A stretch of DNA of 64,000 nt, taken from positions 73,263-137,262 of the forward strand of contig JAUCBJ010007522.1 of the NCBI GenBank assembly GCA_032718475.1. Direction: 5' to 3'. The position numbers and the translations under genes were made by a program. Shown piece by piece: positions 9,456 to 53,195 of this stretch (positions are counted from its first letter, which is position 1; each line of letters begins with the position of its first letter). Origin of the DNA: Nemertoderma westbladi (Eukaryota > Animalia > Xenacoelomorpha). The notes beneath the pieces are model-generated. The model saw only the letters and a program-made list of their open reading frames with translations. It was not told the DNA's origin and made no database searches.

Positions 9456-9533
9456 CTGCTCCCAGAAAATGGGATTTAATTCTATAAAATATAAAAAATC
9501 ACAGTTTCTAAAATATAAAAATACTCTAAACAG

Positions 9534-11049: not shown

Positions 11050-11085
11050 AGCTGCAATATGAGTTTATCAATATCATAATGAGTT

Positions 11086-17661: not shown

Positions 17662-17826
17662 TGTTTGTTTTGTGTCAATGTTTGTGTCAATGTTTGATTG
17701 TACAGTTGAATGCCTACTGCTATAATTACAGTTAGAGCAAGTCTAGTAATTCAGTATCACAGTTAGCCTAGTAATTAATTACCGATATCGTTACTCTATG
17801 TAACATGATATATATACAATATATTA

Positions 17827-18080
17827 GAATACCGGTATACACTTATAGTATATATATAAGTATTATTACAGACTAGGTTTGTCACAGAATACCGGTATAT
17901 AATTTCAGCGCAAATATATAGATATATAATAAGCCTAACGTGAATACCGGTATACAGCTTACACTTATAGTATATATAAGTATAATTATAGACTAGAATT
18001 AATTACAGAATACCGGTATATAATTTCAGCTCAAATTTATAGAAATAAATATAATAAGCCTATTGTGAATACCGGTATGT
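17827..18080. repeat. Five ~60-bp-spaced copies of palindromic GAATACCGGTAT in the BEL-B 5' UTR
   Basis: Copies at 17827, 17887, 17942, 18008 and 18067, with alternating flanks giving a ~120-bp dimer. Confidence 0.85.
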
Positions 18081-19335: not shown

Positions 19336-20480
19336 TGTTCGTGCTTTTAGACTTTTAGCAGTTTAACCTGCCAAATTTAGGTGTCTTCTAGGTTATAAAT
19401 CGACTTTAGCCTAAGACTAGTATTTGATACACATAAACACTACATTAGCCGAAGCCAGCCTATGCGCGACCATTCACCCACTGGATTTACCCGGGAGACT
19501 GGATTCGGAAGCTCTGACCTTATTGCGGTGTAGGCCTACTGTACTATTAGATTGATCGTTAATATATAATCTCTGACAAATATTATTCACTTTCGGGAAA
19601 TACTAACAGTTCCTTTAGGACGTGGCGCTCTAAATATGTAAACAGAGTCATGACTTACACTAAACACAACGGGATGGCTATTGATTTACGTATAAGGCGC
19701 ATTCTTTAGGAAATGCTTGTTATCTGTCACACTCATGCACACTAACGCACAATGCTGCACACCAATCTGCCGACCTTCACTAATTTTAGTCATATATAAA
19801 GAGAACAGCAACCGACACATGTAGGGCCTATGAAATAGCATTCATTTCACTCCAAAACCACTATAATGTAAGTCGCAATTGCTATATGTAACCGGTCTCT
19901 CTAACCTTCAGTATATCAAGAAGATTGGGGTTTTATGGTGATTTATCGATATTCTCCAAATATAACAATATTCCATCAACTGATACAATTAATAACAGAC
20001 AGTAAATAGCAGTAGAATAATGCGTCATGCATATGTATGCACTGATAACAGTTATACGTTTCTATAATCAAAGCCGTTCTAATGTTTGGCTAAAGTCTGA
20101 AACACAGAATAATTCCACGGCCGGTGTTCTAGGCTTAGGAAAAATACACACTGACTGAATTGCGTGAATTTCTGTATGCACTGTCCAACACAGAGGGAAA
20201 ACCGCTCTGATTGGTGCCGAACAAAGAAAGCCAAAAGCTACACGTCGACATCTCAGCTGATAGATGTCGTCATCTGAAATACACTGTATTAAGAGTATTT
20301 TTGGTGCATTGCGGCATAAAATTGCTAGTTATGTCCGCTAAAGTACACATACAGAAGAAATGGCTTTTTATGTCCACTAAAACACCTGTACAGTAAGGAA
20401 ACGGCTTTTTATGTCCACTAAAACACCTACAGAGTACTTTGCGGGGAAAATAACCAGCTAATTCCGCAAAAGCCTTTACA
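19336..20480 (-). repeat. BEL-B 5' LTR (1145 bp)
   Basis: TGT...ACA termini on the minus strand. Differs from the 3' LTR by a few substitutions and two small indels. Confidence 0.95.
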
Positions 20481-33801: not shown

Positions 33802-36415
33802 TGATTGGCTAATACCCATTTGCATTCAGCTTACCAGCCCCAGCCTATATAGCATTATATCAGTTGGTCAGCCTAACTATTGAAGATTTATTAGTTAACA
33901 GCTCACTAGCTGTTAGTAGATTTGTGGGTCGGAATATTCACGTCAATTCGTGATATTGCCGATGTCAATTTGTGATATTGATTCGTATTATGTCGATTTA
34001 TTGTTTGTCGATTAATTAATTTGTTATATCAGTTGAATTATTGCGATTTATGTTATTATTATGTTATCGATAAAGATAAAGAGAATGGATTCAAGTCATT
34101 CTGTTGTTGATTAACGTTGGTAGCACAATAACATTGAGGTTGGTGGTCTATAGACTGTACGGTATTGCAACTCATCGCACTGGGGTGTACGTGTTACAGT
34201 ATTGTCATATGACGCCTAATATTAATAGCAAACTAACATATTTTAATACGTGCACAAAATTAATTCCTGTGACATCGGTATCTCGGATTGTCAGTTTCAT
34301 AAATCCGACTTCCATAAGTCTCGAATGAATACAGTTTTCAGTTAGACATAAAGACGTAAGCAGCCCAGATACACAACTTAAAGGAACTATTTATACGGGG
34401 TTTCAAATCTGTTTATAGTAACGCCAGTTTTATATGCAACAATAAATTATTCTACGAGTACAAGTAACGGTTACTAGCGCCCGTTTCTTGTATATACAGC
34501 TGGTCGTAAGTTTAGGCTCATTATTTGCAAAATTGAATTGTAGCGCTAACAGTGAATATTTAACTCAGTGAAGATTTCGCCAGCGAATATTATCCACCTG
34601 GTGAATTTTTCTCCTCGCATTTATTGTTGCATTGTCCTTATCTGTAATTCTAGAGTAGGCTATTTAGGACTGCGCACCCTGAATAGAATATTTTAAGTTT
34701 ACAACTGTCGGTGTTATAAATTGATTTACTGTGTATAGAATAGGAGTTGTAAAAATTTATTTACCTGAATGTTTACATTTACAGTATGTACATTTATTGT
34801 TGTAGCATTTAATAGTTCAGTGTAGATTCTGCACTCAAATATTTCAAGCGGCTAACGAACTGCGTGTCCCCCACCTTTTTGATAGGACGTCCCGCACGTC
34901 CCTTGCGTAATTATATCTCGCTTGGTGTCAATCTCGTCTTAATAGTAAATCGAGTATCTATCTAAATATTCTGGGAGAGGTATTTGAAGAAATTTTTCTG
35001 TACTGTGTTGTTTGTGTTTCGATTGTGAATTGCTTATTTGTGAGTGTGATTTCAGGTGACTGAATGTGTTTGTGCTGTTCCCGTCTTGACTGCATGAAAA
35101 CTGGATTAATTGGTCCCATATCAATCCTGTTGGTGTTCGGTATAGTGAGTACGTTTAAGGGATTTGAACGCTCAGTTGTATTGCGTTCAGCGGCAGATCG
35201 ACAGTAAGATTCCTAGCTACGTGCGAATAGGGTATCGATGATCGTTGGGTAACTGAGCAGACGTATTTCTTATTGTAAGCACGAGTTCCTGATATCAAGT
35301 TATTAAATTTTGCTTACCAGCGGGTAAGGCTAAGCAAAATTTATTCCTGTGGACAGCAGTGTTTGTTTGAAAATTGTATGCAATTAAAGAATTTCTCCCT
35401 TGACGCTGTTCGGTTTCGGAGGCTGGGGAAACTTCCACGTGTCAGACTCGACGTTGTAAATCTATGCAGGTCTCGGCGTACCATAAGTCTATGTGTGTTC
35501 GTAACCTGACAGTGGAATTGTGTGCGACAGATTGATAAATATTGTTGAAAGCAAAATGCGAAGTCCCAAAATAGTTGGAATTAAATTCCAGCTATAAACA
35601 TAAATTTACTCCCCTGATAAATCTAACCCGTTAAATTGTCCTATCCATTTATTGTAATATTTTGATTTGTAATATTTTGATTTGTAATAATTTTCTTTGT
35701 ATATTAAGTACGCATTATCATTAGGTACATTCTATTGTATTATCATTCTGTAGTAGATTAATTTATATTGCAGGAATATAAGAATAATCTATATACCAAA
35801 GCAATTTGGTCACATTTATTTCATAGACATACGGCATCAATATAACTTGTCTATATCATTCATTACAGGCATACAAGTTACTCGGAACTGCCAATATATC
35901 GAATTAACTTCCCTGCAGTCGACCCAGTTACTGTTAGTCTATATTGGAACATTGCCAAGAGAGTACAATACAATAGCTTGTAACAGAAAGCTTTAACATC
36001 AGCCCATACTGCCTTGATAATTATTGTAGGTAACTGAGCGAACAAGGAGGGCCATTTGTTATCTCCTCTGACTGCCTTAGTATAAGCCATTTACTGTCAA
36101 GCCCTATTAAATTGAATTATCCATATAGGCATCGCCAATCAGATAGCTACAGTAGCTTCCACCAGTGTAATTTCATCTGAGGGTGTTAGGCAAAGGCGAC
36201 TCCTTACGGGAATATCCAGCACTAGCATTTCTTTAACTAGCACTTGTTATCTTTCTATCAGTAGGTGGCGTGGCTTATTTCTGTTGCAGAAATCAACTGA
36301 CTGACAAGCTATATATACTGCATTAATAATTATTAATTATTTGCAGGCGCTACAGTTTATAAATAAATTATAGATTGGATCTTTTTAATTAATTATATTT
36401 AATTAATTAATTAAC

Positions 36416-39400
36416 ATGGATGATCATAAATCTACTTTAAATAACAATTCTTTTATGTCCGCACCCAGTAATGCTTCTAGTAGTGATGGGTTTGAAGTCC
36501 GTGACAAGATTTTGAGAACCCCTCCTCCAGCAAGAAGTCCAGCAGCTGTACATCCCCCAGTTAGAATACATAGTAGGGAAGTCCAAATAACTGACACACG
36601 GCTTGTAGATCGTCGTAGATCTGTGATCGGCACTAGGGCACAGAGTAAAAGGAAAGGGTTAGTACAGGCAAGTAAGGACACTGAGTTGGACAAAGACTTG
36701 CAAAAATGGAAAAATAAGACTTCCCAGCGAGAACAAGCAGCAAGTGTGGACGTCAGAACACAAAGAAGTCCCACTTATAGTAGTGACAGTTCCAATTCTG
36801 ACAGGGATGGTATTTACAGCAGAAATGACATGAACATGACTGTATTGCCTGACAATGAAATTATACAAGGTAACCAGGCCTCTCATAATACAATAGGTGG
36901 ACCGATAATAGGTGAGGCTTCACACCCCCAATCTGAATCCATTCCAGCTAGTGTAAGTGAAGTCAGTTCATCTAAAGGTTCTGGTTCTGACACCTCGTTT
37001 AAAGATCCCTTAACGAGGCTGCCACCGAATCAATTAATCCGCCTGCTAGAGGCAATAGAGACTTATAAACCAACATCACAACACTCCATGCGGGATATTC
37101 TGCCGGTGAGTTTCAAAGAGAGGTATTACGCCAGCACAATTTCCCCAAGTTACACAGGTTTTTTAACCTAGGTGATGCTACTGTAGAAGAGTTACAAAAA
37201 TTAAAAATGCAAAATCAGTGACAGAATCCATGACTTATCAAAGGATGGCGAGAACATTTAAGCAAGGCTTTAGTAAACAAATTGAGCAACTTAAAATTCG
37301 ACTCCATGCTGAGCGGAGTACACAAGTTATTGATCACTCATTAGATTTCGAAGTGGTGCAGAGAGTGTTGCGTATAAGAATAATTTTTTCGGCATTCCAT
37401 GAAGTGGCACTAAGACTTCAGGATTCTGTTTTGGATAAATTGATAAACGACTTACTCAAAGAAGTGGTTGTCCTATCCAAATCTGTTCTAGAATACAAAC
37501 AAGAAGTCCCAGTAGATGTCATCTCACAACTGACAGATCAAATAGAAATCGTGGGAGAAACAGAATTGCGCCGGCGATTGCAGGGCCTGAACCCAAGGAG
37601 TAAACAAGCTAGACGGGTGTTGGAAGACATTGACCGACTGGGCAAAGAGCGTGCTTTGGAGCAACTGGAATTAGATGCTGCTCAGAAAAGGAGGAAGCAA
37701 CAGGTGATCGAACTAGAATTAGAGGCCGAAGCAGATAAAATTAATGCCAAAGCCGAGGCAGATAGAATTAAGGCCGAAGCCGAGGCAGAGAAAATTAAGG
37801 CCGAAGCTGATACAGAGAAAATTAAGGCTGAAGCTGAGGCAGAGAAAATTAAGGCCGACCAATTAAGGGCATTGGAACTCGAACGAAAGAAAGCGGCTTT
37901 AGCTGCAGAGGATGAAATGGCAAGAAAAAGGGAGGAGATACAAAGGAAATTCTCTTCGCTTGACAAAGAACGGATCACCCGGAAGGCCACTTACTTCTCC
38001 TCATCAGATGAGGGTGCAAGTGATAGTGACATAAGCAAAGTCTATTCCTCGAGGGCCGAGAACAGTCGCAGAAAGCGAGCATCGTTATTCCGGATGCCGG
38101 ATATGCCACCGAGATCTAACCCACATGCATATTCTGACGCCTGCCAAAGTGACACATCCTCTCTAAAACAATCTGCCCCCTTGGTTACCATTATAGATGT
38201 TGATGAGGAAGCTGAAGCTGAACCTGGTCCAGATATGTCAGTTCCAGCGCAATTGACAAACAATAAAATATCAAATAATAAACAACTAAAGGTAACTCTA
38301 GTAACTGGTAAGACACCCGAACTTAATCATAATAACCCTGGCTATGGAACCGCAGCTATGTCGGCAGTAGCTCAGGCTGGACCCGCAGGTAAGACACATG
38401 GATTGAACCAGACTAAACATACTACTGTAAGTTTTGTACAAGGTGAGAAGACTATTAGTGACCCATGTATGTCCAGCACAGTCAGAGTTCCCCGGAATGA
38501 GCGTGTTTCCTTTGAGAGTGGTTTGTCACCGATTAGTCACCGTAGATTGGCCATTGAAGGAACCGATGAGACCCATGGATCCGCAGATATGTCGGAAGTG
38601 GTCATTGGTGAGCAAGGGGCCCATCCTGAACGTGAACAGTTAAGGAGGACCAATGAAACAGGTAAAGTATGTAGGCCAAAAAACATTATTAAACCAATGG
38701 ATAGTGAGATAACTAGAACCCAAATTGAGGAAGGCAAAAGGGTGCAACAGGGTCTGCGAGACACCATCTCAGAGTTAAGACATACATTAGGAAATAATGG
38801 TGAGTTTGCAAATACATATGCAGAAAATCTAAACGAATTAAAGGGAGTGCAAGATGAAATTTTGAGGTTAAATAAAGTGAAGGAAGCTGATCTAAATAAA
38901 CTCCGAGAGAATGATATAGTATTTGAAAGAAAACAAAATGAAATATATTATTCCACTCAAGTTCTGGAGGGAATTCAACAACAACTAGTAACTGCTCAAG
39001 ATACATTAGCTGCGATTAATAACCAATTACCATCATCAGAAAATGTTAGAATTGGGCAGAATGTACACATTCTTCAAAGATCAGCGCAAGCTACTGGTAT
39101 GCATGCAGAAAACATAGCAACCATGAGGACCCAAATGAGAGACACTGATCAACCACCTATTGACCCATTCTTGAACCCTAATCCCATGCAAGTACCACCT
39201 AATGTTACCCGGCCACCAGATAGCCTTGGTAATTTATCGACATCTTTTCTTAACCTCTCAATTCAAGAAAGCCTGAGTAGACAAATGGCCAGACAGGTTG
39301 TAACTGGAGGTGAAACGATAAAATTTAATGGAGATGCATTGAAATGGCTTCCTTTCCACGAGTACTTTAAAGACAATATACAGAACTCACTTTTGACTGA

Positions 39401-40286
39401 AGGAGAAAAATTAAGATTTCTCATTGAATGTCTAGAGGGACCCCCAAAAACAATGGCTCTGAAATATGTAGGTCATCCTCAAGGGTTACAAGAAGCATGG
39501 AACACACTTTCTGAAAGGTATGGTGATCAATCTACCATTGCGATGTTTGTGTTTGACAAATTAATTACAAAGAAACGTATAGCAGGTGGAGGCTTGGTTG
39601 AGTTCTCGGATGAAGTCCATGAGTTGTGTAGACAGTTAGATTGGTTGAATAAGGGAGAAATGTATGACAATTACATGGTCGTCAATAAAATAGCTGGTGC
39701 TCTACCAAAGGGAAATGTTGGTAATCGATGGGATCGTTTTGTTGTTCAAAACAAACGTGATAGACAGCGTGACGTCACCATGAGAGACTTCCTTAAATTC
39801 CTCAAGGATGAAGTCACTCTACAATTTCAAAGAGATGTCCGTGAAAGAGGAAGTGAGGCCAAACCAGCAACCGAGAAACCTGTTATTGTTCCCAGAAAAA
39901 GAGTTATGAATATCTATGACCCAGAATACGATAGCAGTATTTCTTTGAGAGAAGACATGGAATCTGATTCCCAGGAAGTCTACTATTCGAAACCAACCGG
40001 TAAACCCAATAGCCGACTCCATACACTGACAAATACGAAAGGTGATATACAAACCTCCACCCAACGTGATATAAGATCAACCAATGGGATACTACCACGA
40101 TCCCAAGTAACTAACACAAATGATAAAACGGTAACAAATAAATATCCTAATACATGCCCCTTTTGTCCAAAGGTAAGTCATCAAATGTACCAATGCCCAG
40201 AATTTTTAAAGATGAGTGATTTAAAAATTTTTAAAGATCCAGGAGATGGTTTATTAAGAACCAACGTATATGCTACAAATGCTTGA
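36416..40286 (+). pseudogene. gag: BEL-C gag, long N-terminally extended form (frameshifts near 37170 and 40230)
   Basis: RRRSVIGTRAQ, ELRRRLQGLNP and KFNGDALKWLPF...EKLRFLIECLEGPPK, collinear with BEL-B. Tandem AEAEKIK repeats. Confidence 0.9.
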
Positions 40287-43200
40287 AATTTGGTCATTTG
40301 AGGAGAGATTGCAAAATCGTAGGTATTGAGTGTCCAAAATGTAACGGTTCACATCATGCTCTGCTACATAGCGAATCTTACACCCCTAGAAGTATGGAAC
40401 AACGTGTACACTTCAGTGACGCTTGCGAAGATCCGTATGACTCTGACGAACTGGCAGGTTCTCCATATCCAGGTGAGTTTTCAGATGATAGTGACTCGTG
40501 TAATGTGTATCATATTATGATGGAAAGAGCCCTAACTTATGTCTCAAACCCGGAAACAGACGATATCACACCATTACAACACTCATCAGTTAATCAGGTG
40601 ACAAAACTGAAACAGTCCAGGAATGTAGGAGTAAGAGAATTTCCCATAGTCCAGGTGAGATTACATGCAGGTAAAAGAAGCATTATACTAAATGCATTAA
40701 TGGATTCTGGCAGCACGAATACCTTCATAGATAAAGATCTTGCTGAGACACTGTGGGACAACCACGAAATATATCCCATGCGACTTAATTTAGCCGATGT
40801 AATGCAAAAATGGACTTCAACATTGGAAACGTTCTATTGCATTGGTGCTCTGTCAGCCCCGACCAATCATGATCATATATACTCATTGGACAATGTAAAA
40901 ATGGTGGCGATAAAGAACTTCACGAGGGGACAAGCACCATTATATAATTGGGATGAAGACGAATTCACCAACGAACATAACATACCCCGTTATGATGTTG
41001 ACAGTCCTGGAATTTCCCTCCTGATTGGACAGAATGCACATGAGGCTCTCGAGATATTGGAGAAGATACCTAAAAAACCTTTACCTTTAGCACCATACGC
41101 ATGTAGGACGCGGATAGGTTGGTATTGTACGGGACCTTCAACGAAAACCTTACAAGAACGAACCGGAGCAAGTATAAAGGTAAACGAAGTTCTTAGCTAT
41201 GACTCATCACTTGAAAATGTCTTATCGACTGACAATGACCAAAACATAGACCTAGAGAATGATGAGACTGATACAGAGTTAATTGATGACGAACAGTATA
41301 TTAATTATCAAATGCAGAATTATAATTCTTTGCAAGGAAATTTTGTTAACGATGAACATGACGAATTAAGTGAAATCTTGCGAGCTCAGGCTGAATATAA
41401 TGCTGAGCAACAACTCGTTGAAGATGAGCGATCCCGTGACATACAACGGACTACCACAAAATTCTTAAAGAATGAAGGTAAGTATGAAATAGGTTTACTT
41501 TGGCGCTCTCGGGATCCCAAGTTCCATAACAACAGAATTCTAGCAGAGAAGAGAGTGGAACAATTAAAGCGACGTTTGGCTGCAAACCATAACGCATGGC
41601 ACATGTATAGGGAACAGATGGAGAAGTTCATCACAAAAGGGTATGCTGAAGAAGTGCCAACAAGGACACCAGAATCAAATCGGACATACTATATAACTCA
41701 TCACTATGTGGAACGTCCCGACAAGCCAGGTACTGTGAGAGTGGTCTTTGATGCTTCAGCTCTATATAAAGGACAGTCTCTCAATTCAGAATTAATGACT
41801 GGTCCCAACATGTTGCAATCCCTTCTAGGAATCTTGATTCGCCTTCGCCAATACTCGATCGCCTTCGCCTCAGATATTGAAGGCATGTTTTTACAAGTGA
41901 AGGCCCTACAAGTAGACAGAGATAGCCTCCGGTTTTTTTGGTGGCCAGACGGAGACTTTAGAAAACCTCTGAAGGAATATTGGATGACGGTACAAGCGTT
42001 TGGCATTAATTCCAGCCCATCTAACTCATGCTTCATTGTTCATACCACGGCGGATGATAACCAACATGATTTCTAGCCCACCATCCTAGAAAATATCAAG
42101 AAAGATATATATATGGATGACAACTTGAAGTCTGTTCTAACCGTTGAGGAGGCGATAAGCATAGCGAAAGGCACAGTAGAATGTCTTAAACGAGGAGGAT
42201 TCAAGCTCACGAAGTTCGCTAGCAACTCCAGAGAGTTTCTGGACTCAATACCATTCGAAGACCGTGGTGCGAAAAATCTGGATTTGACACGTGATGATTT
42301 ACCGGAAACAAAGACATTAGCTTCTAAAGCTCTCATTGTGAATAAAGAGTTAAGGACACGACCACCTAGGGCAGAATTGAAAGCAGGTTTCTATGCAACA
42401 ACTGTTGCTAAAAACGTGACTGAATATTTGAATTTTGAAATATCAAGGACTACATTTTGGACTGACGCTGTCTTGGTTCTAGAATATTTAACTAACGAAG
42501 TATGTCAGTTTAGTGTATATGTAACGAACAGAGTTGCAATCATGCTCAGCCGCACAAAGGTGGATCAATGGAGGCATTGCCCCGGTACTATCAATCCCGC
42601 TGACATTGCTTCGCGTGGTGCGACTACAAGAGAGTTGATTAATACCAAATGTTGGCTCAACGGACCAGAGTTCTTATGGGAGGCTGGAAACGAATGGCCG
42701 AAAAATCTGACACCGGCAGAAATCCGACAGGCTAAGGGAGCCGAAATAATAAAGCCAAGGAAAACTACAAAATCAAAGTTATTCACCAAACCACTTGATA
42801 TAACTGCCCAAATAGTTGACAATGACTTGGCCCGGAAACCAGAAACTTCTGGACTTCAGAATTCGTATTTCACTAAACATGAGGAACCCCATGAAAACAT
42901 AACGACCAATTCAGACTTACCAAACCATATTAGTGATACTTCAAAGATCACACCACGACAATCAAGTGATACATTGCCTAACATAAAACAAGGATTATCA
43001 CCCTTATTGGAAGAAGCAATGAATCACTATAGTTCTTGGTACCGGTATAGACTTTGTAAGAGCGAGACATATCTCAAGAAATACGTGCACTACCGTTTTG
43101 GTGTGTCTAGAGACTGTACACCAGCAGTGACGCGAGGAGATATTGATGAGACTAATAAACAACTACTGCGTCTTTCTCAGAAACTCGATGACCCAGCAAG

Positions 43201-43704
43201 GTACAATAAATTGGTGAGTGAACCAGGCATCACGTTGCGTGACAATTACACAAGTGTCATGATAGATGGGTTAATTAGGGTAGGGGGTAGATTGACTAAC
43301 GCTCCTGTGTCTAAGGATACCATATTCCCAATAATAATATATAGCCCAGATATACAACGTAAGTTAATTCAAGACACACATGCCAAACTTTACCATGCTG
43401 GCCGTGAACGAATTCTTAGTGAACTGCGCACTCGTTATTACTTGGTTAAACCCCGTAAGTCACTTAATAAAATTTTAAGGAATTGCATCCCCTGTAAAAG
43501 ACTGTACAGTAAGCCATTAACCCAAATTGAAGCGGAGTTACCACGTGAGAGGGTAAGTTGCTACCAACCGCCGTTCACAAACACCGGTGTTGACATGTTT
43601 GGACCAATAGAGGTCAAACGAGCACGTACCAAAGTAAAACGATGGTGTATTATATTTGTTTGTCAGACGTGTAGAGCGATACATCTGGATATGGTCAACG
43701 ACAT
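40283..43704 (+). pseudogene. pol: BEL-C pol: knuckles, protease, RT, partial RNase H, N-half of integrase
   Basis: ALMDSGS, YITHH, DIEGMFLQV, YMDD, WRHCPGTINPAD, H..H/CIPC and GVDMFGP. Stop at 42076. In-frame deletion at ETKTLA|SKA. Confidence 0.92.
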
Positions 43705-44005
43705 TGTTAGATTATGTATTGTAAGGGCTCTAGTAGACCCTGGCTTGGTGGTGGTTAGATCCAACCTACTGGTCTTTTAGCTACCGGTCTTCTTCTGGTA
43801 TTCCGGTATTCAGTCTTTCCTATCTTCTAGGTCTGTAGGTACAGTAACCGTTACCAGTACCTACTGTACTGCTGTACTGATGTGCTGTAAGGTGGTGGGT
43901 GTGTTCGTTGGTCTGTTGGTTCTTATTATTGTTTGATATGCTGTTCTGTATGTCGACCATTAATAAACTGATGCAGCTGGTATTCATTTATTTCCGATCC
44001 CAATA

Positions 44006-44016
44006 TGGCGCAGTGA
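44006..44016 (+). promoter_or_regulatory. tRNA primer-binding site of the Gypsy element (TGGCGCAGTGA; possibly tRNA-Ser)
   Basis: TGG lies immediately after the 5' LTR. The tRNA identity is from memory of tRNA-Ser 3' ends (...CTGCGCCA) and was not verified. Confidence 0.75.
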
Positions 44017-44177
44017 TGTACTTGATGTTCCTACAACCCTATTCAAATGGTGGACATTCCAGCGCATTCAGCAGGTTAGATAATTCAACATTATTCTACC
44101 GGTCGCCTCTACTGATTCTGATATAGGCCTAGCTACCTACCTATACTTCTGGTGGTGTACCTACTCCAGTACTCTTC

Positions 44178-44353
44178 TAAACTAAGCCCTTGGGACGGAC
44201 AGTGGAGTGACTCACGCTGGTTATCGTTGTCGTTGTGTAGCTACTACGTTGGCGAAAAACACAGCGACGACGGTAGCCTACATCGGCGCTGAGGACCTTG
44301 CGCTGTCCGGGGGCCTTGAGGGGTAGGCAGCGACGCCCGCTAGCCTAATTATA
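44178..44353 (+). ncRNA. Putative structured RNA module in the Gypsy 5' UTR, shared with BEL-B
   Basis: Closely matches the reverse complement of 11086-11256. Several differences are G-U/Watson-Crick exchanges within stems. Confidence 0.65.
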
Positions 44354-44555
44354 CTGTTATAACTACCGGTACCTATTCAATTCACATTCAGCAGTCAGGT
44401 GGTATTCCAGTCTGCCAGTATTCGATAACTACAGATTTTGGCTGATTTGCGTGCAAAAGTTTTGCACATTTTTGCAAAATTTTTTCTTTTCGGATTTTTC
44501 AAATTTTTTCGGATATTTAATTTCCTGAAATTTCTTTAATATTCAACAGTCAGAT

Positions 44556-47500
44556 ATGCCTACTAAAGCTGAACTCGAAACCGAACTGGAGGTTTTAAGA
44601 GAACAGTTGGCTGGTCGTGGTAATCCTGATCCCACCTCAGCTCTTCTACATGCATTAGTTAAATCGCAACGCGATTTGGCTGATTCCTTAGCACAATCCC
44701 AAGCCCAAAATGCCCATCAATTTCAACAATTACTTGGTCAACCGCATCAACCTGTAGTTCATCAGTCTGACTCAACCCCTCGTAATCTTCAAATTAAAGC
44801 ACCAATTGCTTTAGAACCGGATTTCAGTTTAGCAAAATTTGAAACTCGGAAGTCGGTTTGGGCGGATTATTATTCTGCATTTCAGATGGATAGAATGGCT
44901 AGGGATAGGCAAATCTGTATTTTCAGGAGTTACCTTTCTATAGGTATGCGCTCTACACTGGAACAAGTTATTGACATTCCTCCTGACACACATGATAATC
45001 CTTTAACAGTTCAGGTGTTAATAGATTGTATTCAAAGTTATTTTCGTGGTAAACGGAATATAGCCCTTGATTGTGTTCAGTTTGATAATAGGAAACAACG
45101 TCAAAGTGAAAATTTTGATAGCTACCTGGTTGCTATTAAAGATCTTGCTCGAGATGCTGATCTATGTCGTCATTGTTTCGATCGGCGGTTGACTACTCGA
45201 ATTATGTCTGGTATTTCTTGCGAGGACACCAGATCTAAACTTCTTGCATTGACTCCATTTCCATCGCTTGAAGATGCTGTAAATCTTTGTAGGTCTGAGG
45301 AATCAGCCCAAGCTGGAGTTCAGGATTTAAAAAACCCTTCAATCAACCAAGCTTCTCGACAATCTCGTTTTCACAACAAAAAGCCTTATAATTCCAGGCG
45401 CAACAATTCTTCTAAATCCAATTCCAGAAACAATTCTTCAACTACTGGCCCTATAGTTTGTTATGGTTGTGGTAAAACAGACCATAAACGCGCTGACTGT
45501 CCAGCAAGGAACAAAGATTGTTCTTATGGTGGCAAGGAAGGCCACTTTGCCAATGTTTGTCGGTCTAAACAAAATAATTCGAATTCATCTTCAAAACCTA
45601 AGACAAAACCCATTAGCCGCATCACCCTCAATTTGGTTGGAAGCCATAATCGACAAGCTCCGAAAGTATTTCTGAACTTCTGTCATATCGCAACAGGACA
45701 TTTATTCGGTTCTCTCAAAGCAACTCCAGATACTGGTGCTGAGGCCACTGTTGCCGGCTTAGATTTTCTTCAGGCCCTTTCTATTGACAAAGAAAATTTA
45801 CTTCCACCAGACCATGATGATCTTTCTGCTGCTAATGGTAGTCTTCTTTCATGCATTGGTCTCCTCCACACCACAATTTCCTATGGCGAATATTCAACTG
45901 ATGAGCTCATCTGCATTTGTGAAGAAGTCGATGGAATTCTTTTGGCATGGTATACTTGTCAAAACCTAGGAATTATTTCAAGTTCATATCCAGAACCAGT
46001 GGCAGAAATTCAGTCTGTTACTTCTTCTAATTCTTCTAATATGTCACCTATTGGTATTAAAAACTCAATTCCAACAACATCATTCAAGGTTGACTTCCAT
46101 CTTTCTGATGAACCTTCGCCTTCAGAATGGGATACTGTTAAGCAGAAACTCATAAAGGCTTATTCTGATGTTTTTGACCAAGATGACAAACTTCGTCCAA
46201 TGAATGGCCCACCCATGACCATTTCATTAAAAGATGATGCCCAACCATATGCTATTCATACAGCCAGGCAACTTCCTTTAGCCATTAGAGACTGGGCTAA
46301 AGCTCGCTTAGAGAAAATGGTTGAACAAGGTATTATTTGTCCAGTTCTGGATAACGAACCAACTGATTGGGTCCATCCTTCCGATATCACTTCTGATATC
46401 ACTTCCGATATCATTTCCGATATCACTTCCGATATCACTTCCGATATCACTTCCGATATCACTTCCGATATCACTTCTGATATCACTTCCGATATCATTT
46501 CCGATATCACTTCCGATATCACTTCCGATATCACTTCCAATATCATTTCCGATATCACTTCCGATATCACTTCTGATATCACTTCCGATATCACTTCCGA
46601 TATCACTTCCGATATCACTTCCGATATCGATTCGATTCCAGACGCACTTTCCCGTGCCCCTGTTTCGGATCCTACTCCAGAGGATATTCTTTGTGATACA
46701 GATGTCAATGACCATGTCTCCGCAGTCATACGTCACGTGTCTACCTCAATTGTTGTCTCTGATGCTCCAAGTCATCTCAAGGATTCATATATTGAGTCTA
46801 TCCGATCATCTGCAAAGGATGATATTTCTTACATGGCTTTGGTGGATGCTGTTATTTCTGGATTTCCCTCAACATCCACACAATGTTCTGTGCACATACG
46901 CCCATTCTGGAATGTGCGACATCAGTTATCTTGTGAAGATAATCTTCTTTTATTAGGTTCCCGGATTGTAATTCCATCTTCCCTCCGTAAGGATGTCCTG
47001 AAGCACCTTCATGATGCTCATCAGGGCATTGAACGTTTTAAGAGGAGAGCTAGGCAAACTGTATTCTGGCCTGGTATCAATAGCGATATTACAAGCATAG
47101 TCAATTCTTGTCCCCAGTGTCAACTTTATCAACCAAGTTTACCTACAGAGTCTCTCCAAAGCGACCCTCATCCATGTCTTCCAATGGAGGATTGCTCTGC
47201 TGATCTTTTCTACTTCAGCACCTGGTCATACCTGGTTTATGTCGATAGATATTCTGGGTGGCCATGCGTTCATTCTTGGTGTGCCGATCCTTCCAGCTCT
47301 CAAGTTATTTCAGCTCTTCGAGGATGGTTCAAAGATTTCGGTATTCCAAAACGCCTTCGTTCTGATGGTGGTACACAATTTAATTCAGCACATTATCATG
47401 ATTTCTTATCCGAATGGAATATCATCCCTGAGTATTCTACTCCTGAGTATCCTCAGTCTAATGGCCATGCAGAGGGGGCTGTAAAGGCCATGAAATCATT

Positions 47501-48020
47501 GATAAAAAAGTTAGATATCAAAGGAGATCTAAACTCTACTTGCTTTGTTCGTGGTTTGCTGGAATGGAGAAATACTCCTAAAGAACATGGTATGTCTCCA
47601 GCTCAACTGTTGTTTGGTAGATCCCTCCGTTCCACTATACCAGCTCATTCGTCCACACTGGCAGGTGATTCATTCCCTATCCCTGGTCCTTCAACGTCTT
47701 CAGCAACTGAATCATATTATAATGATCATGCTCACGACTTAACCCCGATTCCTATTGGTTCCCGAGTTTGCATCCAGAGTGCACATTCCAAACTATGGAA
47801 CAAATCTGGTATCGTCCTTTCCCGTGGTACTAGGCAAGATTACAGGATTGAACTAGACAATGGTCGGGTGTATTGGAGAAATCGTCGTTATCTGCGTTCC
47901 ATCCCAGATGACTCTTCTCTTCGTGACATAATGCCTCAAAAACAGGTACAGTTCGCTGATGATCTTCCCAGGCGCAGTTCGAGAACTCACAAGCAACCAG
48001 CAAGATTCGGAGTTCAATGA
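44556..48020 (+). CDS. Gypsy Gag-PR-(RT/RNase H replaced by repeat)-IN single ORF, 1154 aa
   Basis: Two knuckles (CYGCGKTDHKRADC, CSYGGKEGHFANVC), PR PDTGAE, RT start ...WVHP, then (SDIT)n, then IPDALSR. IN: LHDAHQG..CPQC, SDGGTQF, PQSNGHAE. Confidence 0.92.
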   Translation: MPTKAELETELEVLREQLAGRGNPDPTSALLHALVKSQRDLADSLAQSQAQNAHQFQQLLGQPHQPVVHQSDSTPRNLQIKAPIALEPDFSLAKFETRKSVWADYYSAFQMDRMARDRQICIFRSYLSIGMRSTLEQVIDIPPDTHDNPLTVQVLIDCIQSYFRGKRNIALDCVQFDNRKQRQSENFDSYLVAIKDLARDADLCRHCFDRRLTTRIMSGISCEDTRSKLLALTPFPSLEDAVNLCRSEESAQAGVQDLKNPSINQASRQSRFHNKKPYNSRRNNSSKSNSRNNSSTTGPIVCYGCGKTDHKRADCPARNKDCSYGGKEGHFANVCRSKQNNSNSSSKPKTKPISRITLNLVGSHNRQAPKVFLNFCHIATGHLFGSLKATPDTGAEATVAGLDFLQALSIDKENLLPPDHDDLSAANGSLLSCIGLLHTTISYGEYSTDELICICEEVDGILLAWYTCQNLGIISSSYPEPVAEIQSVTSSNSSNMSPIGIKNSIPTTSFKVDFHLSDEPSPSEWDTVKQKLIKAYSDVFDQDDKLRPMNGPPMTISLKDDAQPYAIHTARQLPLAIRDWAKARLEKMVEQGIICPVLDNEPTDWVHPSDITSDITSDIISDITSDITSDITSDITSDITSDITSDIISDITSDITSDITSNIISDITSDITSDITSDITSDITSDITSDIDSIPDALSRAPVSDPTPEDILCDTDVNDHVSAVIRHVSTSIVVSDAPSHLKDSYIESIRSSAKDDISYMALVDAVISGFPSTSTQCSVHIRPFWNVRHQLSCEDNLLLLGSRIVIPSSLRKDVLKHLHDAHQGIERFKRRARQTVFWPGINSDITSIVNSCPQCQLYQPSLPTESLQSDPHPCLPMEDCSADLFYFSTWSYLVYVDRYSGWPCVHSWCADPSSSQVISALRGWFKDFGIPKRLRSDGGTQFNSAHYHDFLSEWNIIPEYSTPEYPQSNGHAEGAVKAMKSLIKKLDIKGDLNSTCFVRGLLEWRNTPKEHGMSPAQLLFGRSLRSTIPAHSSTLAGDSFPIPGPSTSSATESYYNDHAHDLTPIPIGSRVCIQSAHSKLWNKSGIVLSRGTRQDYRIELDNGRVYWRNRRYLRSIPDDSSLRDIMPQKQVQFADDLPRRSSRTHKQPARFGVQ
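46380..46628 (+). repeat. 12-bp tandem repeat (TCCGATATCACT) x ~21, in frame
   Basis: Direct tandem copies with a palindromic GATATC core. Confidence 0.97.
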
Positions 48021-48392
48021 ACTGACCTATTGGTGGTGGTTGGATTTTTTTTTTTCAGTACAAATGTCTCCTACATTGTTCTTGGGGGAGATGGTAGATT
48101 ATGTATTGTTAGGGCTCTAGTAGACCCTGGCTTGGTGGTGGTTAGATCCAACCTACTGGTCTTTTAGCTACCGGTCCTCTTCTGGTATTCCGGTATTCAG
48201 TCTTTCCTATCTTCTAGGTCTGTAGGTACAGTAACCGTTACCGGTACCTACTGTACTGCTGTACTGATGTGCTGTAAGGTGGTGGGTGTGTTCGTTGGTC
48301 TGTTGGTTCTTATTATTGTTTGATATGCTGTTCTGTATGTCGACCATTAATAAACTGATGCAGCTGGTATTCATTTATTTCCGATCCCAATA

Positions 48393-49277
48393 GACATGTC
48401 GATGGATAGCTTCCTTTTGTGTTTGAGACGACAGATAGCACGGTTCGGCAGCAGTCAAACTATACGTTCTGACCAAGGAACCAATTTCGTCGGCGCTAGC
48501 AGAGAAATCACCACATATGTTGATAGATGGAACCAGGAACAAGTTGATGAGTTATTGAGAGTAAACGCGGCAACTTGGACATTCAACGCAGCTGATGCAC
48601 CATGGTGGGGAGGTAGCTGGGAGCGGATGATCCGAAGTGTTAAAATAGCATTCCACCACGTGATACCATGCGGGGCATACCTAACAGATGAGTTACTTCG
48701 CACCTTTCTGGAAGAAATAGCAGCTTACATTAACGACCGCCCATTGATGCCTGCTTCGTCTGATCCGAAGTCATTGGAGTCGCTGACACCTGCCCACTTC
48801 CTGATGAAGAAACCTATCGTTATGGTACCTGTTTCTAATTCGGAAGATTCCCATATATACTTACGTCAAACATGGCGGATGATGCAATTACTTTCCAATA
48901 GATTCGCCATACACTTCGAGAAACACTACTTACCATCTCTCCAACTGCGCACCAAATGGTTTAGTCGTCAGGAAAACCTTCAAATTGATGACGTAGTACT
49001 AATAGTCGACGACGATATCCCGAGGAAACGATGGCAAACTGGACGTGTCACAGTTGTCCATACATCCGCTGACGGACTTGTGAGATCAGTCGACCTCATC
49101 GTAATGAGAAAGAAGAAACAAAGGGAGAAGGATAAGAAGAAATTAGAATTCGTACCTCAAACATTGAATAGACCAATTGGACGGCTCTGTTTGCTGGAAA
49201 TAGCCCGCGAGGAATCAGGCGATTATGGTCGTAAAAAACCAACACTGTATTCCTTTGAACACATTAATCCAAATTAA
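48393..49277 (+). pseudogene. pol: BEL-C integrase C-terminal half
   Basis: SDQGTNFVGA, APWWGGSWERMIRSVK, LTPAHFL, DGLVRSV and LNRPIGRLCLLE. Confidence 0.93.
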
Positions 49278-50644
49278 TAAACATTGGATACGATTGTGAT
49301 AACATTCCATCAAATCGTGGGAACGGGTTATTGTAAATTCGGATTAACATAGCAAATTTTTTTAAAAAACTTAAAGAGTGCAGATTCTTAAAGTTTAGCT
49401 TATTTACGCTGTAAGAATATACTGTATGTACGCTCTAAGAATATCATGTATGTACGCTGTACCTGTAAGAATATAATGTAAATATTTAGGCTACATAATA
49501 GTGACACAAAATAAATTTGGCTTTATTGTACATTAATCTACGAGTCTATAATAGGCTTATACTCTGAAAGTGTACAGTAAAAGAAGTCCCATAGCATGTC
49601 AATAAAATATGACAAATCACGGGAACGGAATAAACTCCCACTGCTGAGTAAAAATTTTGTTCAACACCCCGTGTAATTATACTATATATCCCATTTGGTC
49701 TTATTGTACAATAACTTATGTTATAAATTGCTTAATGTTCGCCGGTGTACAATAAGAGAAGTCCCCACATAACAATATGAATAAATATATTGTTTATACC
49801 TTTGACAAACTGAATGTTTGGATGTCCCAAGGCATCGTTGAACCTATCCGATGTACTTGCACATCATAATAAGCATCAGTTGTTAACGTCGTATTATAAA
49901 TAAAATATTAAAAGATCAAGGGAACGGATGGAGAAATTGAATATTTCTTTAACCGATGCACTTGCTGCGCTTTATAACAAACATTATTTGTTATAAATTT
50001 AAATAATTATGGGAACGGATTGCAAAATAAACCCAATAAAATAACCAATTTGGCCTCCTTGTACATTAATTCACGGATAGATATATTTATATTCAACCGG
50101 TGTGCAACGAGGGAAGTCTTCACAACAGTCAAATACTGTTGTCATTTTGACCATTTAAAGCCACAAGTCATCCCTGAATTAATCAGATATATTTGTGCGC
50201 GCAATAACGTCAATTGCTAACGTCTTTATATCTAATATAAATGTTAAATTGCAAAATTTTCAAATAGAAGGAACAAAATAAATTATTTCAATCAGACAGA
50301 AATATATTAATATTTCATGTCACGTTATTTAATGTCACAGATGATAAATAAGATATAAATCTGTTATATGACATTACCTCTATTTGAATGCATGATAACT
50401 ACTCTAACTATTCTCGTTCTCCTAGATGCCGCAGTTATAGTTGATTAATTCGAAAGATAAAGCATAATTATTGTTCAATTTTTGTCAAACAACAAATAAT
50501 GGGATAATAATATGTATACAATTAGTAACTAGCTATGAAATTTAATTAGCGGCATCGTGGAAAACACCAAATCAACGGAACCTTTGTATTTGTGTCGCAC
50601 CGTGAAATAAACAATTGATCTCAGCTAATCTCTGTGTGTTACAG

Positions 50645-50906
50645 TAGCGAGTTGCGGTATCTATTGGCAGTTTATATCTCACGAGTAAAGTTAAAGCTTT
50701 TGCCTCAATATTTTGTGACTTGCCGGCAATGATCAATAGCGGCCCGCAGCTCTGGATGGTTTTGAGGGACTCGGCTTAAGTTTATTGTCCGCCACCGGAT
50801 TGGTAGTTATATCCGAAGGTGCGGAACAAAACAATAAACTGCCCGAGAAACTCAAACCATACTGCGGGTGAAAGGGAAGAGGTGGCGACGTCCGCTAACC
50901 TCAATT
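50645..50906 (+). ncRNA. Putative structured RNA module upstream of the BEL-C accessory ORF
   Basis: Long hairpin CCCGCAG(50743)...CTGCGGG(50868). Conserved flanking motifs TAGCGAGTTGC and GCGACGTCCGCTA, as in BEL-B. Confidence 0.55.
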
Positions 50907-50956
50907 TCGACAAGCACTTATAACTCTTGATATCTTTGGATCATATATATCGAACA

Positions 50957-51306
50957 ATGGATTTAATTGAAGATGATCACGAATTAAGGGAGCGATATAT
51001 TCGGGCTATGAAGGAATTATTGGATGGTCTCTCAATTGGATCACCGACGAACAACCCCTATCTCGATATGCTGAGCCGTAAATGATGGATGAGCAACTCA
51101 GATGGGAGTTCAACTATTGTAGTTCCCCGAATTACCTTACACAAACCGAGATGTTTGAACTCTCTTTGACGAGCGAACCAAGAATCGCAATCCTTGATCA
51201 CCGAATCCTTTATCACATTTGGACGCTTTTGACTAGAGAGTACAGTCAAGTGAGTTCCCCGAGATCAGCGAGTATTCCCCTCCACGTCAACCGCTGCCCA
51301 TTGTGA
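50957..51306 (+). pseudogene. BEL-C accessory ORF homologue (disrupted); may extend toward 52260
   Basis: ATG at 50957 gives MDLIEDDHELRERYIRAMKELLDGL; the shifted frame reads RYAEP*MMDEQLRWEFNY. Aligns with BEL-B 11049-10663. Confidence 0.7.
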
Positions 51307-52328
51307 ATGTGGCGACTGTCACGATTTAATGAATAGACTCTAACTGACTCGAGACATCATCCGTGGAACAGTTGTCTCCAGTATATCTGAAGTCAATCAG
51401 AAATTCTCGATCCTTTCGACTACTGCATATATGAGTCGAATGACATCATGTATCGAGATTCTAGCGTTGTTGGAACAGCTCAACCAAACCATGGAAATTG
51501 AGCTGACCGCCAGTCTGGTGGCGAGTATAGGACACAGTAGACTCTGTACGAACAACAAAGAGTTTGGTCGCCCGACATAGAGTTATAACATAGGGTCATT
51601 GACCGTATGGACAGCTGTTTCGAACGAAATTACCTCCATAGTACAATTCCTGATGATAATGAGTCCTACAGTATCGTCAAAGTAATTCAACAAGTTCCCA
51701 AAGACGGCGATTCCTTCTTCGAGAAATCATCCCGAGTTGAGGGAGACGGGGTGCCGCAAGGTTAAAACAAATCGACATCGGGACCATGTATCCAATTTCC
51801 AATGAACCTAAGCAGTTCATGACAACAACTAAAACATTCGCAGTCCCGACGCAGCCGTATTAATACATGTGTTGGACTTACCTCCGATAAAACCGAGACG
51901 AGATACCAATATTGGGTATGGGAAATTACTGAAGCGGTCTACTGCGAGACAGCACCGATAACTTCAGACGGGTAACGAACAGCTGAACACCTCTATCCAT
52001 CCGCGCATATGCTGGAAAGGTTCTTGTTGCTGACGTTCTAGAACTGCGCCCATTCCCAGATGACACCTTGGTGGAGTCACTTACCCATTACCCAAACACC
52101 CTCGATATGATTACCAAGGGCGAAGTTGGCAGATTAAAGTCGGAAAGGTCAAGAAGGAAGGTTAAACAAGGTAGATTGAGCCTGCTGCGGAGATTAAGAG
52201 AATTGAGTCTTCCAAATTGTAAATTCTGTTTATTTAACAAGAACTTGTTAAATTTGTAGACTTTGTTTATTAAGCAGAACTTGTTTTACAAGTTGTAGTA
52301 TGTACTTAGCCTCAACTCTCGGGAACGG

Positions 52329-53195
52329 TGTTAATGCCACTAGTGAATGGCATTTACCTCGCAGGCTCGCCCCATATTGTTAATTTACTTCTGCCAGGGA
52401 ATTATTATGTTATACGGCAAGGGCCATGCAGAATAGCTCTGATTGGCTAATACCCATTTGCATTCAGCTTACCAGCCCCAGCCTATATATAGTATAGCAT
52501 TATATCAGTTGGTCAGCCTAACTATTGAAGATTTATTAGTTAACAGCTCACTAGCTGTTAGTAGATTTGTGGGTCGGAATATTCACGTCAATTCGTGATA
52601 TTGCCGATGTCAATTTGTGATATTGATTCGTATTATGTCGATTTATTGTTTGCCTATTAATTAATTTGTTATATCAGTTGAATTATTGCGATTTATGTTA
52701 TTATTATGTTATCGATAAAGATAAAGAGAATGGATTCAAGTCATTCTGTTGTTGATTAACGTTGGTAGCACAATAACATTGAGGTTGGTGGTCTATAGAC
52801 TGTCACGGTATTGCAACTCATCGCACTGGGGTGTGTGTTACAGTATTGTCATATGACGCCTAATATTAATAGCAAACTAACATATTTTAATACGTGCACA
52901 AAATTAATTCCTGTGACATCGGTATCTCGGATTGTCAGTTTCATAAATCCGACTTCCATAAGTCTCGAATGAATACAGTTTTCAGTTAGACATAAAGACG
53001 TAAGCAGCCCAGACACACAACTTAAAGGAACTATTTATACGGGGTTTCAAATCTGTTTATAGTAACGCCAGTTTTATATGCAACAATAAATTATTCTACG
53101 AGTACAAGTAACGGTTACTAGCGCCCGTTTCTTGTATATACAGCTGGTCGTAAGTTTAGGCTCATTATTTGCAAAATTGAATTGTAGCGCTAACA
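52329..53195 (+). repeat. BEL-C 3' LTR (867 bp)
   Basis: TGT...ACA termini. ATTGG (CCAAT) at ~52442, TATATATA at ~52484, AATAAA at ~53085. Confidence 0.95.

What the first reader, a model, noticed from the sequence alone, without database searches (positions are those of the whole stretch)
44178..44353. ~170-nt structured RNA module shared between a Gypsy 5' UTR and a BEL/Pao internal region
Seen: CTAAGCCCTTGGGACGGACAGTGGAGTGACTC...GCGACGCCCGCTAGCCTAATTATA in the Gypsy leader aligns almost base for base with BEL-B 11256-11086 (element strand), while the flanks are unrelated. It folds by eye into a long irregular hairpin (GGACAGTG pairs with CGCTGTCC or CACTGTCC; TATCGTTGTCGTTGTGT with ACACAGCGACGACGGTA) and a 3' hairpin TAGGCAGCG-ACGCC-CGCT-A-GCCTA with a bulged A. 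It is in sense orientation and upstream of a start codon in both elements. Inference: a cis-acting RNA (IRES-like leader, packaging/export signal or new ribozyme) exchanged between two LTR superfamilies, possibly letting the RT-less Gypsy use BEL machinery. It did not match any ribozyme core I could check.
Basis: partly seen in the sequence, partly recalled or inferred. Interest (0 to 1): 0.85.

Follow-up and report, generated by a model that had tools for sequence, protein, structure and literature searches.

The report
Folded RNA leader swapped between retrotransposons
Three jumping genes from two distant families carry the same sequence just ahead of a start codon, predicted to fold into one RNA shape; a Gypsy element likely captured it from a BEL element, and it likely helps ribosomes start translation there, which is untested.

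Summary
In detail: 44179-44353(+) in a Gypsy leader matches 11254-11086(-) in a BEL/Pao element at 91% over 175 nt, with unrelated flanks.

It keeps the predicted fold: of 27 hand-matched pairs, 18 are identical, 7 changed on both sides, 2 on one side, 0 broken. The motif is therefore likely native to this BEL lineage and was captured by the Gypsy, trimmed to the edges of the fold.

It matches no Rfam family, ribozyme core, or type IV/6 IRES hallmark, and shows no TIR or Pol III B box. The Gypsy leader has no AUG for 508 nt around it (8.3 expected). Best reading: a portable, IRES-like translation-start element (0.45). Main rival: an export or packaging signal (0.25). 'Gypsy borrows BEL machinery' is unsupported, since the closest donor itself lacks RT.

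Limits: three copies, no genome-wide search, no RNA data, no homologue found outside the window.

The parts
44179..44353 (+). RNA module, copy 1, in the Gypsy leader between PBS and gag AUG
44187..44322 (+). P1 helix: 44187-44191 with 44318-44322, closing the long hairpin (predicted; ensemble probability 0.54-0.65 in this copy, 0.09-0.15 in BEL-B, 0.11 in BEL-C)
44196..44309 (+). P2 long irregular hairpin with a conserved 3x3 internal loop (GAG-NGA-CUC opposite GAG-RAN-CUY, 44205-44213 with 44291-44299)
44324..44347 (+). P3 hairpin with ACGYC loop and bulged A; the most conserved part (GCGACGYCCGCUA in all three copies)
44048..44555 (+). AUG-free stretch of the Gypsy leader, 508 nt, 0 AUG against 8.3 expected; the 202 nt after the module are 33% GC
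11086..11254 (-). RNA module, copy 2, in BEL-B between the truncated gag-pol region and ORF2
50693..50908 (+). RNA module, copy 3 (diverged, with a 41-nt segment between P1 and P2), in BEL-C before ORF2
11301..11314 (-). 14-nt motif TTACAGTAGCGAGT about 50 nt upstream of the module; possible splice acceptor; absent from the Gypsy
50639..50652 (+). the same 14-nt motif in BEL-C
9537..11049 (-). BEL-B ORF2 region, in pieces; first piece 128 aa from AUG 11049; no Pfam family, no convincing homologue
50957..52256 (+). BEL-C ORF2 region, in pieces; N-terminus homologous to BEL-B ORF2 (45% over 38 aa plus 56% over 18 aa, E 2.7e-5)
43705..44005 (+). Gypsy 5' LTR (301 nt), preceded by target duplication GACAT, followed by a TGG-type PBS at 44006
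48092..48392 (+). Gypsy 3' LTR, 1.3% from the 5' LTR, followed by GACAT
44556..48020 (+). Gypsy single open frame, 1154 aa: Gag zinc knuckle, protease motif, integrase; RT and RNase H absent
46378..46628 (+). 12-bp tandem repeat (about 21 copies) standing in frame where relatives have RT and RNase H
8306..20480 (-). BEL-B element (LTRs about 1145 nt, 1.0% apart; target duplication CCTGT); no RT motif or integrase core
33802..53195 (+). BEL-C element, interrupted by the Gypsy inside its integrase; LTRs 0.4% apart; part of the 5' LTR displaced to 31152-31266

Best explanation
The module is a sequence shared by three retrotransposons, predicted to fold as one conserved RNA, likely native to the leader of a second ORF in one BEL/Pao lineage and likely captured by a Gypsy element, and it likely works as an IRES-like element that loads ribosomes for the next AUG downstream. 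Shown in the sequence: three copies, all sense, all ahead of an ORF start; orthologous position in BEL-B and BEL-C; homology between Gypsy and BEL-B that stops at the edges of the fold. Predicted: the P1-P2-P3 fold. Inferred: capture by template switching during reverse transcription, from a BEL-B-like donor, before the present Gypsy insertion (module 6.5% diverged, LTR pairs 0.4-1.3%); retention under selection in the Gypsy; binding of a host factor to the invariant unpaired bases (AAG, UGA, the 3x3 loop, ACGYC loop, bulged A); scanning from the module's 3' end to the AUG. The conserved fold and the BEL-to-Gypsy capture stand at about 0.85; the translation role at about 0.45.
For: A model built from the Gypsy and BEL-B copies alone ranks the BEL-C copy third of 38 matches in 64 kb (28 bits, rough E 3.5e-4; next best 18 bits, in a tandem repeat). 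Gypsy against BEL-C: 27 pairs, 18 same, 7 changed on both sides, 2 on one side, 0 broken; simulated chance 0.0003-0.005 (helices matched by hand after inspection, so optimistic). Gypsy against BEL-B: 4 stem changes are Watson-Crick/GU swaps, 1 breaks a pair. The module window has the lowest folding energy in each of the three leaders or spacers (1 of 11, 1 of 23, 1 of 23 windows). Upstream lie 9 AUGs in the Gypsy LTR and leader, 22 in the BEL-B spacer and 26 in the BEL-C spacer. There is no AUG in 508 nt before gag (expected 8.3, P 0.0002) and none in 256 nt of BEL-B (expected 4.6, P 0.01). BEL-A, which shows no ORF2, has no module. Precedent: IRESs move between virus families (PMC7354566, abstract), and gypsy, LINE-1 and VL30 leaders have IRES activity (PMC10974842, passages).
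Against: There are only three copies and two independent lineages, and no RNA or activity data. P1 is a minor state in two copies (0.09-0.15 and 0.11; forcing it costs 0.8 and 1.2 kcal). BEL-C folds better on the antisense strand (z -4.2) than on the sense strand (z -2.9), so strand bias is seen only for the Gypsy copy by z-score and for BEL-B by energy. The permutation test on the 9 core substitutions is significant in one direction only (P 0.003 against 0.23). BEL-C has 2 AUGs inside the module, and BEL-B has an out-of-frame AUG (11077) between module and ORF2. The spacing from P3 to the AUG varies: about 43, 54 and 208 nt. The stretch after the module alone is only weakly AUG-poor in the Gypsy (P 0.04), and the ends of the longer AUG-free stretches were set at the last upstream AUG, which favours low P values. 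A possible splice acceptor upstream in both BELs could give a capped ORF2 message that needs no IRES. No known IRES hallmark is met.
Confidence: 0.45

Rival explanations
1. The same captured RNA would act in trafficking: a nuclear-export signal (CTE/RTE-like) or a packaging/dimerisation signal for unspliced genomic RNA.
For: It is a long hairpin with a conserved internal loop, and it works, if at all, at two very different positions. In the Gypsy it lies about 170 nt after the PBS, where packaging signals lie (recalled), with AG sites in a U-rich stretch just before the AUG. An export element gained by recombination between retroviruses is documented (PMC11379458, abstract). All three carriers have internal deletions in pol.
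Against: No Rfam match, and no AAGACA motif (recalled CTE core) in any copy. It does not explain the AUG-free stretches. Packaging signals are usually Gag-specific (CaMV/RTBV example in PMC5902531, passages), and Gypsy and BEL Gag proteins show no similarity.
Confidence: 0.25
2. The RNA would be functional only in the BEL lineage (for example gating splicing or damping ORF2 translation), and the Gypsy copy would be a passenger picked up where reverse transcriptase stalls at hairpin edges.
For: Only one Gypsy copy is known; one direction of the permutation test is not significant (P 0.23). The upstream 14-nt motif shared by both BELs is missing from the Gypsy.
Against: The Gypsy copy has the most stable fold and the best P1. 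Its extra 5 nt add pairs. The one broken pair is in BEL-B, at a position paired in both Gypsy and BEL-C. Divergence about five times the LTR divergence implies the Gypsy lineage kept it through replication (inference).
Confidence: 0.17
3. The module would be a small free mobile element (SINE, MITE or Helitron-like) that inserted separately into the BEL ancestor and the Gypsy.
For: Sharp edges; a 5-nt direct repeat near both ends of the Gypsy copy; a GC-rich hairpin followed by CTAG near the 3' end recalls Helitron ends (recalled).
Against: No terminal inverted repeat, Pol III B box or A-tail. The left copy of the 5-nt repeat lies inside the shared homology, and homology runs 10 nt past the CTAG. 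It holds an orthologous position and fold in two BELs only 44-58% identical in protein. All 3 of 3 copies in 64 kb lie in LTR elements, in sense.
Confidence: 0.08
4. The module would be a new self-cleaving ribozyme that makes the 5' end of a subgenomic RNA.
For: Invariant unpaired bases in a variable scaffold; HDV-like ribozymes do this in non-LTR elements (recalled).
Against: No Rfam ribozyme match. No recalled core motif is shared by the three sense copies. No conserved pseudoknot partner for the P3 loop was found. Cleavage after the PBS would sever the genomic RNA (inference).
Confidence: 0.05

Closest known systems
Viral IRESs spread by horizontal transfer (type IV; type 6) - PMC7354566 (abstract), PMC13273307 (abstract, first quarter of Results), PMC13034579 (passages)
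   Same: A compact structured RNA of 120-260 nt ahead of an ORF, found both in an intergenic region and at a 5' end, moved by recombination between unrelated lineages, with conserved loops in a covarying scaffold.
   Different: No IIId GGG apical loop or IIIe GAYA hairpin, no detected pseudoknot, an AUG 40-210 nt downstream, and hosts that are LTR retrotransposons rather than RNA viruses.
Retroelement IRESs of Drosophila gypsy, LINE-1, VL30 and mussel Steamer-like SLE-1 (PMC10974842, passages; the primary gypsy and VL30 papers were not held)
   Same: Internal initiation in a retroelement leader rich in upstream AUGs.
   Different: In the passages read these are defined by reporter activity; this motif is defined only by a conserved predicted fold, is shared by two superfamilies, and has no activity data.
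Constitutive transport elements, e.g. the MER11-derived CTE of SERV-K (PMC11379458, abstract)
   Same: A cis-acting RNA between coding region and 3' LTR, gained by recombination with another retroelement.
   Different: No Rfam CTE match; sits directly ahead of start codons; the exchange here is between superfamilies, not within HERV-K.
Pararetroviral ribosome shunt (PMC5902531, passages)
   Same: A stable leader hairpin followed by AU-rich sequence before the main AUG.
   Different: No short uORF ends in front of the stem (nearest stops 60, 43 and 147 nt away).
Glycoprotein gene shared by BEL/Pao and Gypsy elements (PMC13524379, one passage)
   Same: The same cargo found in both superfamilies.
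   Different: That is a coding gene; here the shared unit is a non-coding RNA, 93.5% identical, trimmed to its fold.

Membership tests
Any Rfam 15 family (ribozymes, IRESs, CTE included where curated) | covariance-model score at the gathering threshold | tested here: not met
   0 matches in the window; best E 2.5, 0.96 and 2 around the three copies
Known small self-cleaving ribozymes (hammerhead, HDV-like, twister, pistol, hairpin) | conserved catalytic core motifs (patterns recalled) | tested here: not met
   no core shared by the three sense copies; only scattered loose matches
Known small self-cleaving ribozymes | self-cleavage | not testable with these tools
   needs a bench assay
Type IV (HCV-like) IRES | IIId apical GGG loop | tested here: not met
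   no hairpin loop with GGG in the predicted folds; feature from PMC13034579
Type IV (HCV-like) IRES | IIIe hairpin with GAYA loop (loop sequence recalled) | tested here: not met
   no sense-strand match in 3 of 3 copies
Type 6 (dicistrovirus IGR) IRES | two or three pseudoknots, the last abutting the start codon | tested here: inconclusive
   no partner for the P3 loop at a homologous position in all three copies; only the P3 loop was examined; AUG lies 40-210 nt away
IRES (functional class) | end-independent initiation | not testable with these tools
   only indirect signs: AUG pattern and position
Pararetroviral shunt | short uORF ending in front of the stem | tested here: not met
   nearest stops 60, 43, 147 nt from P1
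Pararetroviral shunt | AU-rich sequence after the stem | tested here: met
   33% GC after the Gypsy copy
CTE / RTE export elements | NXF1-binding loop motif AAGACA (recalled) | tested here: not met
   absent from 3 of 3 copies, both strands
CTE / RTE export elements | export of unspliced RNA | not testable with these tools
   needs a reporter
MITE | terminal inverted repeats | tested here: not met
   Gypsy and BEL-B copies
SINE / MITE | target-site duplication | tested here: inconclusive
   5-nt repeat (Gypsy) and 4-nt repeats (BEL-B), partly inside shared homology
SINE | Pol III B box and A-rich tail | tested here: not met
SINE / MITE | many free copies in the genome | not testable with these tools
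   no genome held
Kink-turn (definition recalled) | 3-nt bulge followed by tandem G-A/A-G pairs | tested here: inconclusive
   can be drawn by eye in Gypsy and BEL-B; BEL-C has A-A at the second pair and no matching bulge

The most novel reading that the evidence does not exclude
A new structural class of IRES belonging to LTR retrotransposons: a P1-closed long hairpin plus an ACGYC-loop hairpin that drives a second ORF in a BEL/Pao lineage and moves as a discrete unit into Gypsy leaders, as viral IRESs move between virus families.
Probability: 0.3. Interest if true: 0.8.

Novelty: new variant of a known kind. Interest (0 to 1): 0.62.

Why it matters
In the review passage read (PMC10974842), information on retroelement IRESs is called limited. 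A compact RNA with a covariation-supported fold and a few invariant loop bases would be directly testable by SHAPE, toeprinting and reporters, and usable as a search model across animal genomes. A recent, exactly trimmed transfer of a non-coding module between Gypsy and BEL/Pao would also show that these superfamilies can recombine at the RNA level and trade regulatory parts. That holds even if the function turns out to be export or packaging.

Tried and rejected
Homologues outside the window: none found.
- Pattern scans: viral contigs 0, 2 and 2 loci, metagenomes 35, prokaryote genomes 35.
- The two-copy model scored all 74 loci; best E 0.12, a bacterial stop-codon region. None of the first 37 loci encoded a relative of the window's retro-proteins.
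- L004:2870-2936(-) has a full P3-like hairpin but no long hairpin, 12 bits, in a noisy contig selected for that motif; treated as chance.
- Protein-led scans of viral contigs gave 0 of 12 and 0 of 29 stretches.

Sequencing runs: no RNA holder listed; this is no evidence either way.

ORF2 identity: no Pfam family at E below 0.18 for 11 of 11 pieces; 0 of 123 candidates; 2 hits among 1.84 billion representatives, one a repeat protein matching about 30 residues, the other with no scored stretch and not examined. The Atlas gave no answer.

Motif search in the supplements of PMC3118150 is void: the nucleotide file S1 is not held, and it may bear on how widespread the motif is. Earlier scan findings: nothing in 3 look-ups.

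Literature: 10 searches listed no description of this motif; most hits were seen as listings only, and subscription journals are largely not held.

Considered by eye and dropped for lack of fit in all three copies: twister and pistol topologies, HDV-like order of helices, SECIS, group II intron domain VI, Helitron 3' end, branch-point hairpin. The automatic three-way alignment misregisters BEL-C and was not used for counts. The pair count used a wrong 3' strand for BEL-C; one search is the corrected count.

Full report
Setting. The window (40% GC) is a nest of retroelements and satellites. BEL-A (about 900-8336, +) is interrupted by BEL-B (8306-20480, -; LTRs 1.0% apart, target duplication CCTGT). 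BEL-C (33802-53195, +; LTRs 0.4% apart) is interrupted inside its integrase by a 4.7-kb Gypsy (43705-48392; 301-nt LTRs 1.3% apart, duplication GACAT, TGG-type PBS). BEL identity rests on DUF1759, Peptidase_A17 and DUF5641. Gypsy identity rests on the integrase domains and on 316 of 4046 candidates at E below 1e-20; the five best examined are complete Gag-Pol proteins of 1424-1531 aa. No genome is held.

Observation. The Gypsy leader (44179-44353) and BEL-B (11254-11086) match at 90.9% over 175 columns, E 1e-63, with 11 substitutions and 2 indels; the Gypsy flanks match nothing else in the window better than E 0.13. Sense strands fold at z -4.6 and -3.4, the Gypsy antisense strand at z -0.3. 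Rfam gives no match at the gathering score in the window and nothing better than E 0.96 near any copy.

Third copy. BEL-B and BEL-C share a second ORF after a 1.3-1.7 kb AT-rich spacer (N-termini 45% over 38 aa plus 56% over 18 aa, E 2.7e-5). Just ahead of the BEL-C AUG lies the same 13-nt core; that core occurs exactly at 3 places in the window, and once more with 2 mismatches in a BEL-A repeat. A covariance model built only from the Gypsy and BEL-B copies ranks 50733-50908 third of 38 matches, at 28 bits against 18 for the next (E-values rough). BLASTN does not link the Gypsy leader to BEL-C at all.

Anatomy (predicted). P1 (5 bp) joins AAG-CYYUU to UGARRG and closes P2, a long hairpin of variable sequence with a conserved 3x3 loop; P3 follows, with an ACGYC loop and a bulged A. 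For 27 pairs matched by sequence anchors, Gypsy against BEL-C gives 18 same, 7 changed on both sides, 2 on one side, 0 broken; BEL-B against BEL-C gives 18, 5, 3, 1. The simulated chance that all 9 changed pairs still pair is 0.0003-0.005, an optimistic figure because the helices were chosen after inspection; the rest of P2 was not alignable and was left out. Against this: P1 has ensemble probability 0.54-0.65 in the Gypsy but 0.09-0.15 and 0.11 in the BELs, and BEL-C folds as well or better on the antisense strand (z -4.2 against -2.9). Between Gypsy and BEL-B, of 9 core substitutions 4 swap Watson-Crick and GU pairs, 1 breaks a pair, 1 faces the indel and 3 are unpaired; random placement gives P 0.003 in one direction and 0.23 in the other. 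The module window has the lowest energy of 11, 23 and 23 windows in the three regions, though in BEL-C its z-score (-2.9) is matched by AT-rich spacer windows. No conserved pseudoknot partner was found for the P3 loop.

Origin (inferred). The BEL copies are orthologous: same place, same upstream 14-nt motif, same ORF2, in elements 44-58% identical in protein. The Gypsy copy is 6.5% from BEL-B, lacks the upstream motif, and its homology ends where the fold ends. The simplest history is old residence in this BEL lineage and one capture by a Gypsy from a BEL-B-like donor, probably by template switching, before the present insertion. Replacement of the BEL-B copy from a Gypsy cannot be excluded with three copies. 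BEL-A shows neither ORF2 nor module. No terminal inverted repeat, Pol III B box or tail was found; flanking repeats are inconclusive.

Function (inferred). Each copy has many AUGs upstream (9, 22, 26). The Gypsy has none in the 508 nt before gag (8.3 expected; 0 of 3.2 expected after the module) and BEL-B none in 256 nt (4.6 expected); the stretch ends were set at the last upstream AUG, which favours low P values. The first AUG after the module is the ORF start in the Gypsy and BEL-C; in BEL-B an 11-codon out-of-frame uORF in poor context comes first, and BEL-C has two AUGs inside the module. A fold of -70 to -80 kcal/mol in a scanned leader would block ribosomes (established knowledge), so keeping it there suggests entry at or after the fold. 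The shunt configuration is not met (stops 60, 43, 147 nt from P1). Type IV hallmarks are absent. I commit to an IRES-like role at 0.45, with export or packaging at 0.25, passenger in the Gypsy at 0.17, free mobile element at 0.08 and new ribozyme at 0.05.

The helper idea. The Gypsy frame lacks about 370 aa of RT and RNase H, with an in-frame 12-bp repeat in their place. It keeps Gag, the protease motif and integrase, and has its own PBS and PPT. BEL-B lacks RT and the integrase core, and BEL-C lacks about 100-135 aa in the RT/RNase H region. RT is normally delivered as a fusion with the element's own kind of Gag (established knowledge), so a complete Gypsy relative is the likelier helper; whether one exists in this host was not testable.

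Reach. No homologue was found outside the window in 74 pattern loci or two protein-led scans; these collections hold little animal DNA (by their descriptions), so this says little. Papers seen: PMC10974842, PMC13034579, PMC13524379, PMC5902531, PMC3118150 (passages; supplement list of the last, nucleotide file not held), PMC7354566 and PMC11379458 (abstracts), PMC13273307 (abstract and first quarter of Results). Ten searches listed no description of this motif.

Verdict. A real, undescribed structured-RNA candidate with compensatory support from a third copy, and a likely recent transfer from BEL/Pao to Gypsy. Function is inferred only. New variant of a known kind (portable cis-acting RNA of retroelements and viruses); interest 0.62.

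Noticed in passing
window 19324-19335 (-) and 34552-34560 (+), right after the 5' LTRs of BEL-B and BEL-C: Neither BEL has a TGG-type PBS. The first 12 nt (BEL-B) and 9 nt (BEL-C) after the LTR are the exact reverse complement of a stretch inside their own LTR (background 0 of 1540 and 0.8% of 1789 positions). This recalls Tf1-type self-priming (recalled), but both motifs are near-palindromes and could be protein-binding sites, and the start of transcription is unknown.
   Followed up: partly
window 49319, 49621, 49920, 50011 (+); 11736, 13217 (-): The 8-mer that forms the BEL-C PPT (52321) recurs four times in the spacer before ORF2; BEL-B has two internal copies like its own PPT. Possible extra plus-strand priming sites.
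   Followed up: partly
window about 12122-12230 (-) and 49783-49890 (+): A second conserved non-coding block of about 110 nt (68%, E 2e-8) in both BEL spacers, duplicated in BEL-B (11837-11997 and 12066-12227). No Rfam match in the BEL-B copy.
   Followed up: partly
window 46378-46628 (+): The Gypsy's RT and RNase H are replaced by a 12-bp repeat that keeps a 1154-aa Gag-protease-integrase frame open, which may mean the shortened protein is under selection.
   Followed up: partly
window 9537-11049 (-) and 50957-52256 (+): ORF2 of this BEL lineage is of unknown family, about 400-500 codons, in pieces in both copies; the last BEL-B piece ends in a basic stretch.
   Followed up: partly
window 31152-31266 and 32390-33808 (-): The BEL-C 5' LTR is split by an insertion carrying a separate RT frame; another RT frame lies at 58091-59593 (-).
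   Followed up: no
window 21259-21764, 22492-22993, 23614-23880: Three long inverted-repeat (MITE-like) elements, one with 194-nt arms 99% complementary.
   Followed up: no
window 30180-31151, 53196-57927; 25695-28089: A 20-bp satellite flanks BEL-C on both sides (BEL-C appears inserted in it), and a 61-bp satellite with higher-order units lies upstream.
   Followed up: no
L004:2870-2936 (-): A P3-like hairpin with a full lower stem and a short P1-like helix, in a noisy metagenome contig; weak score, most likely chance.
   Followed up: yes
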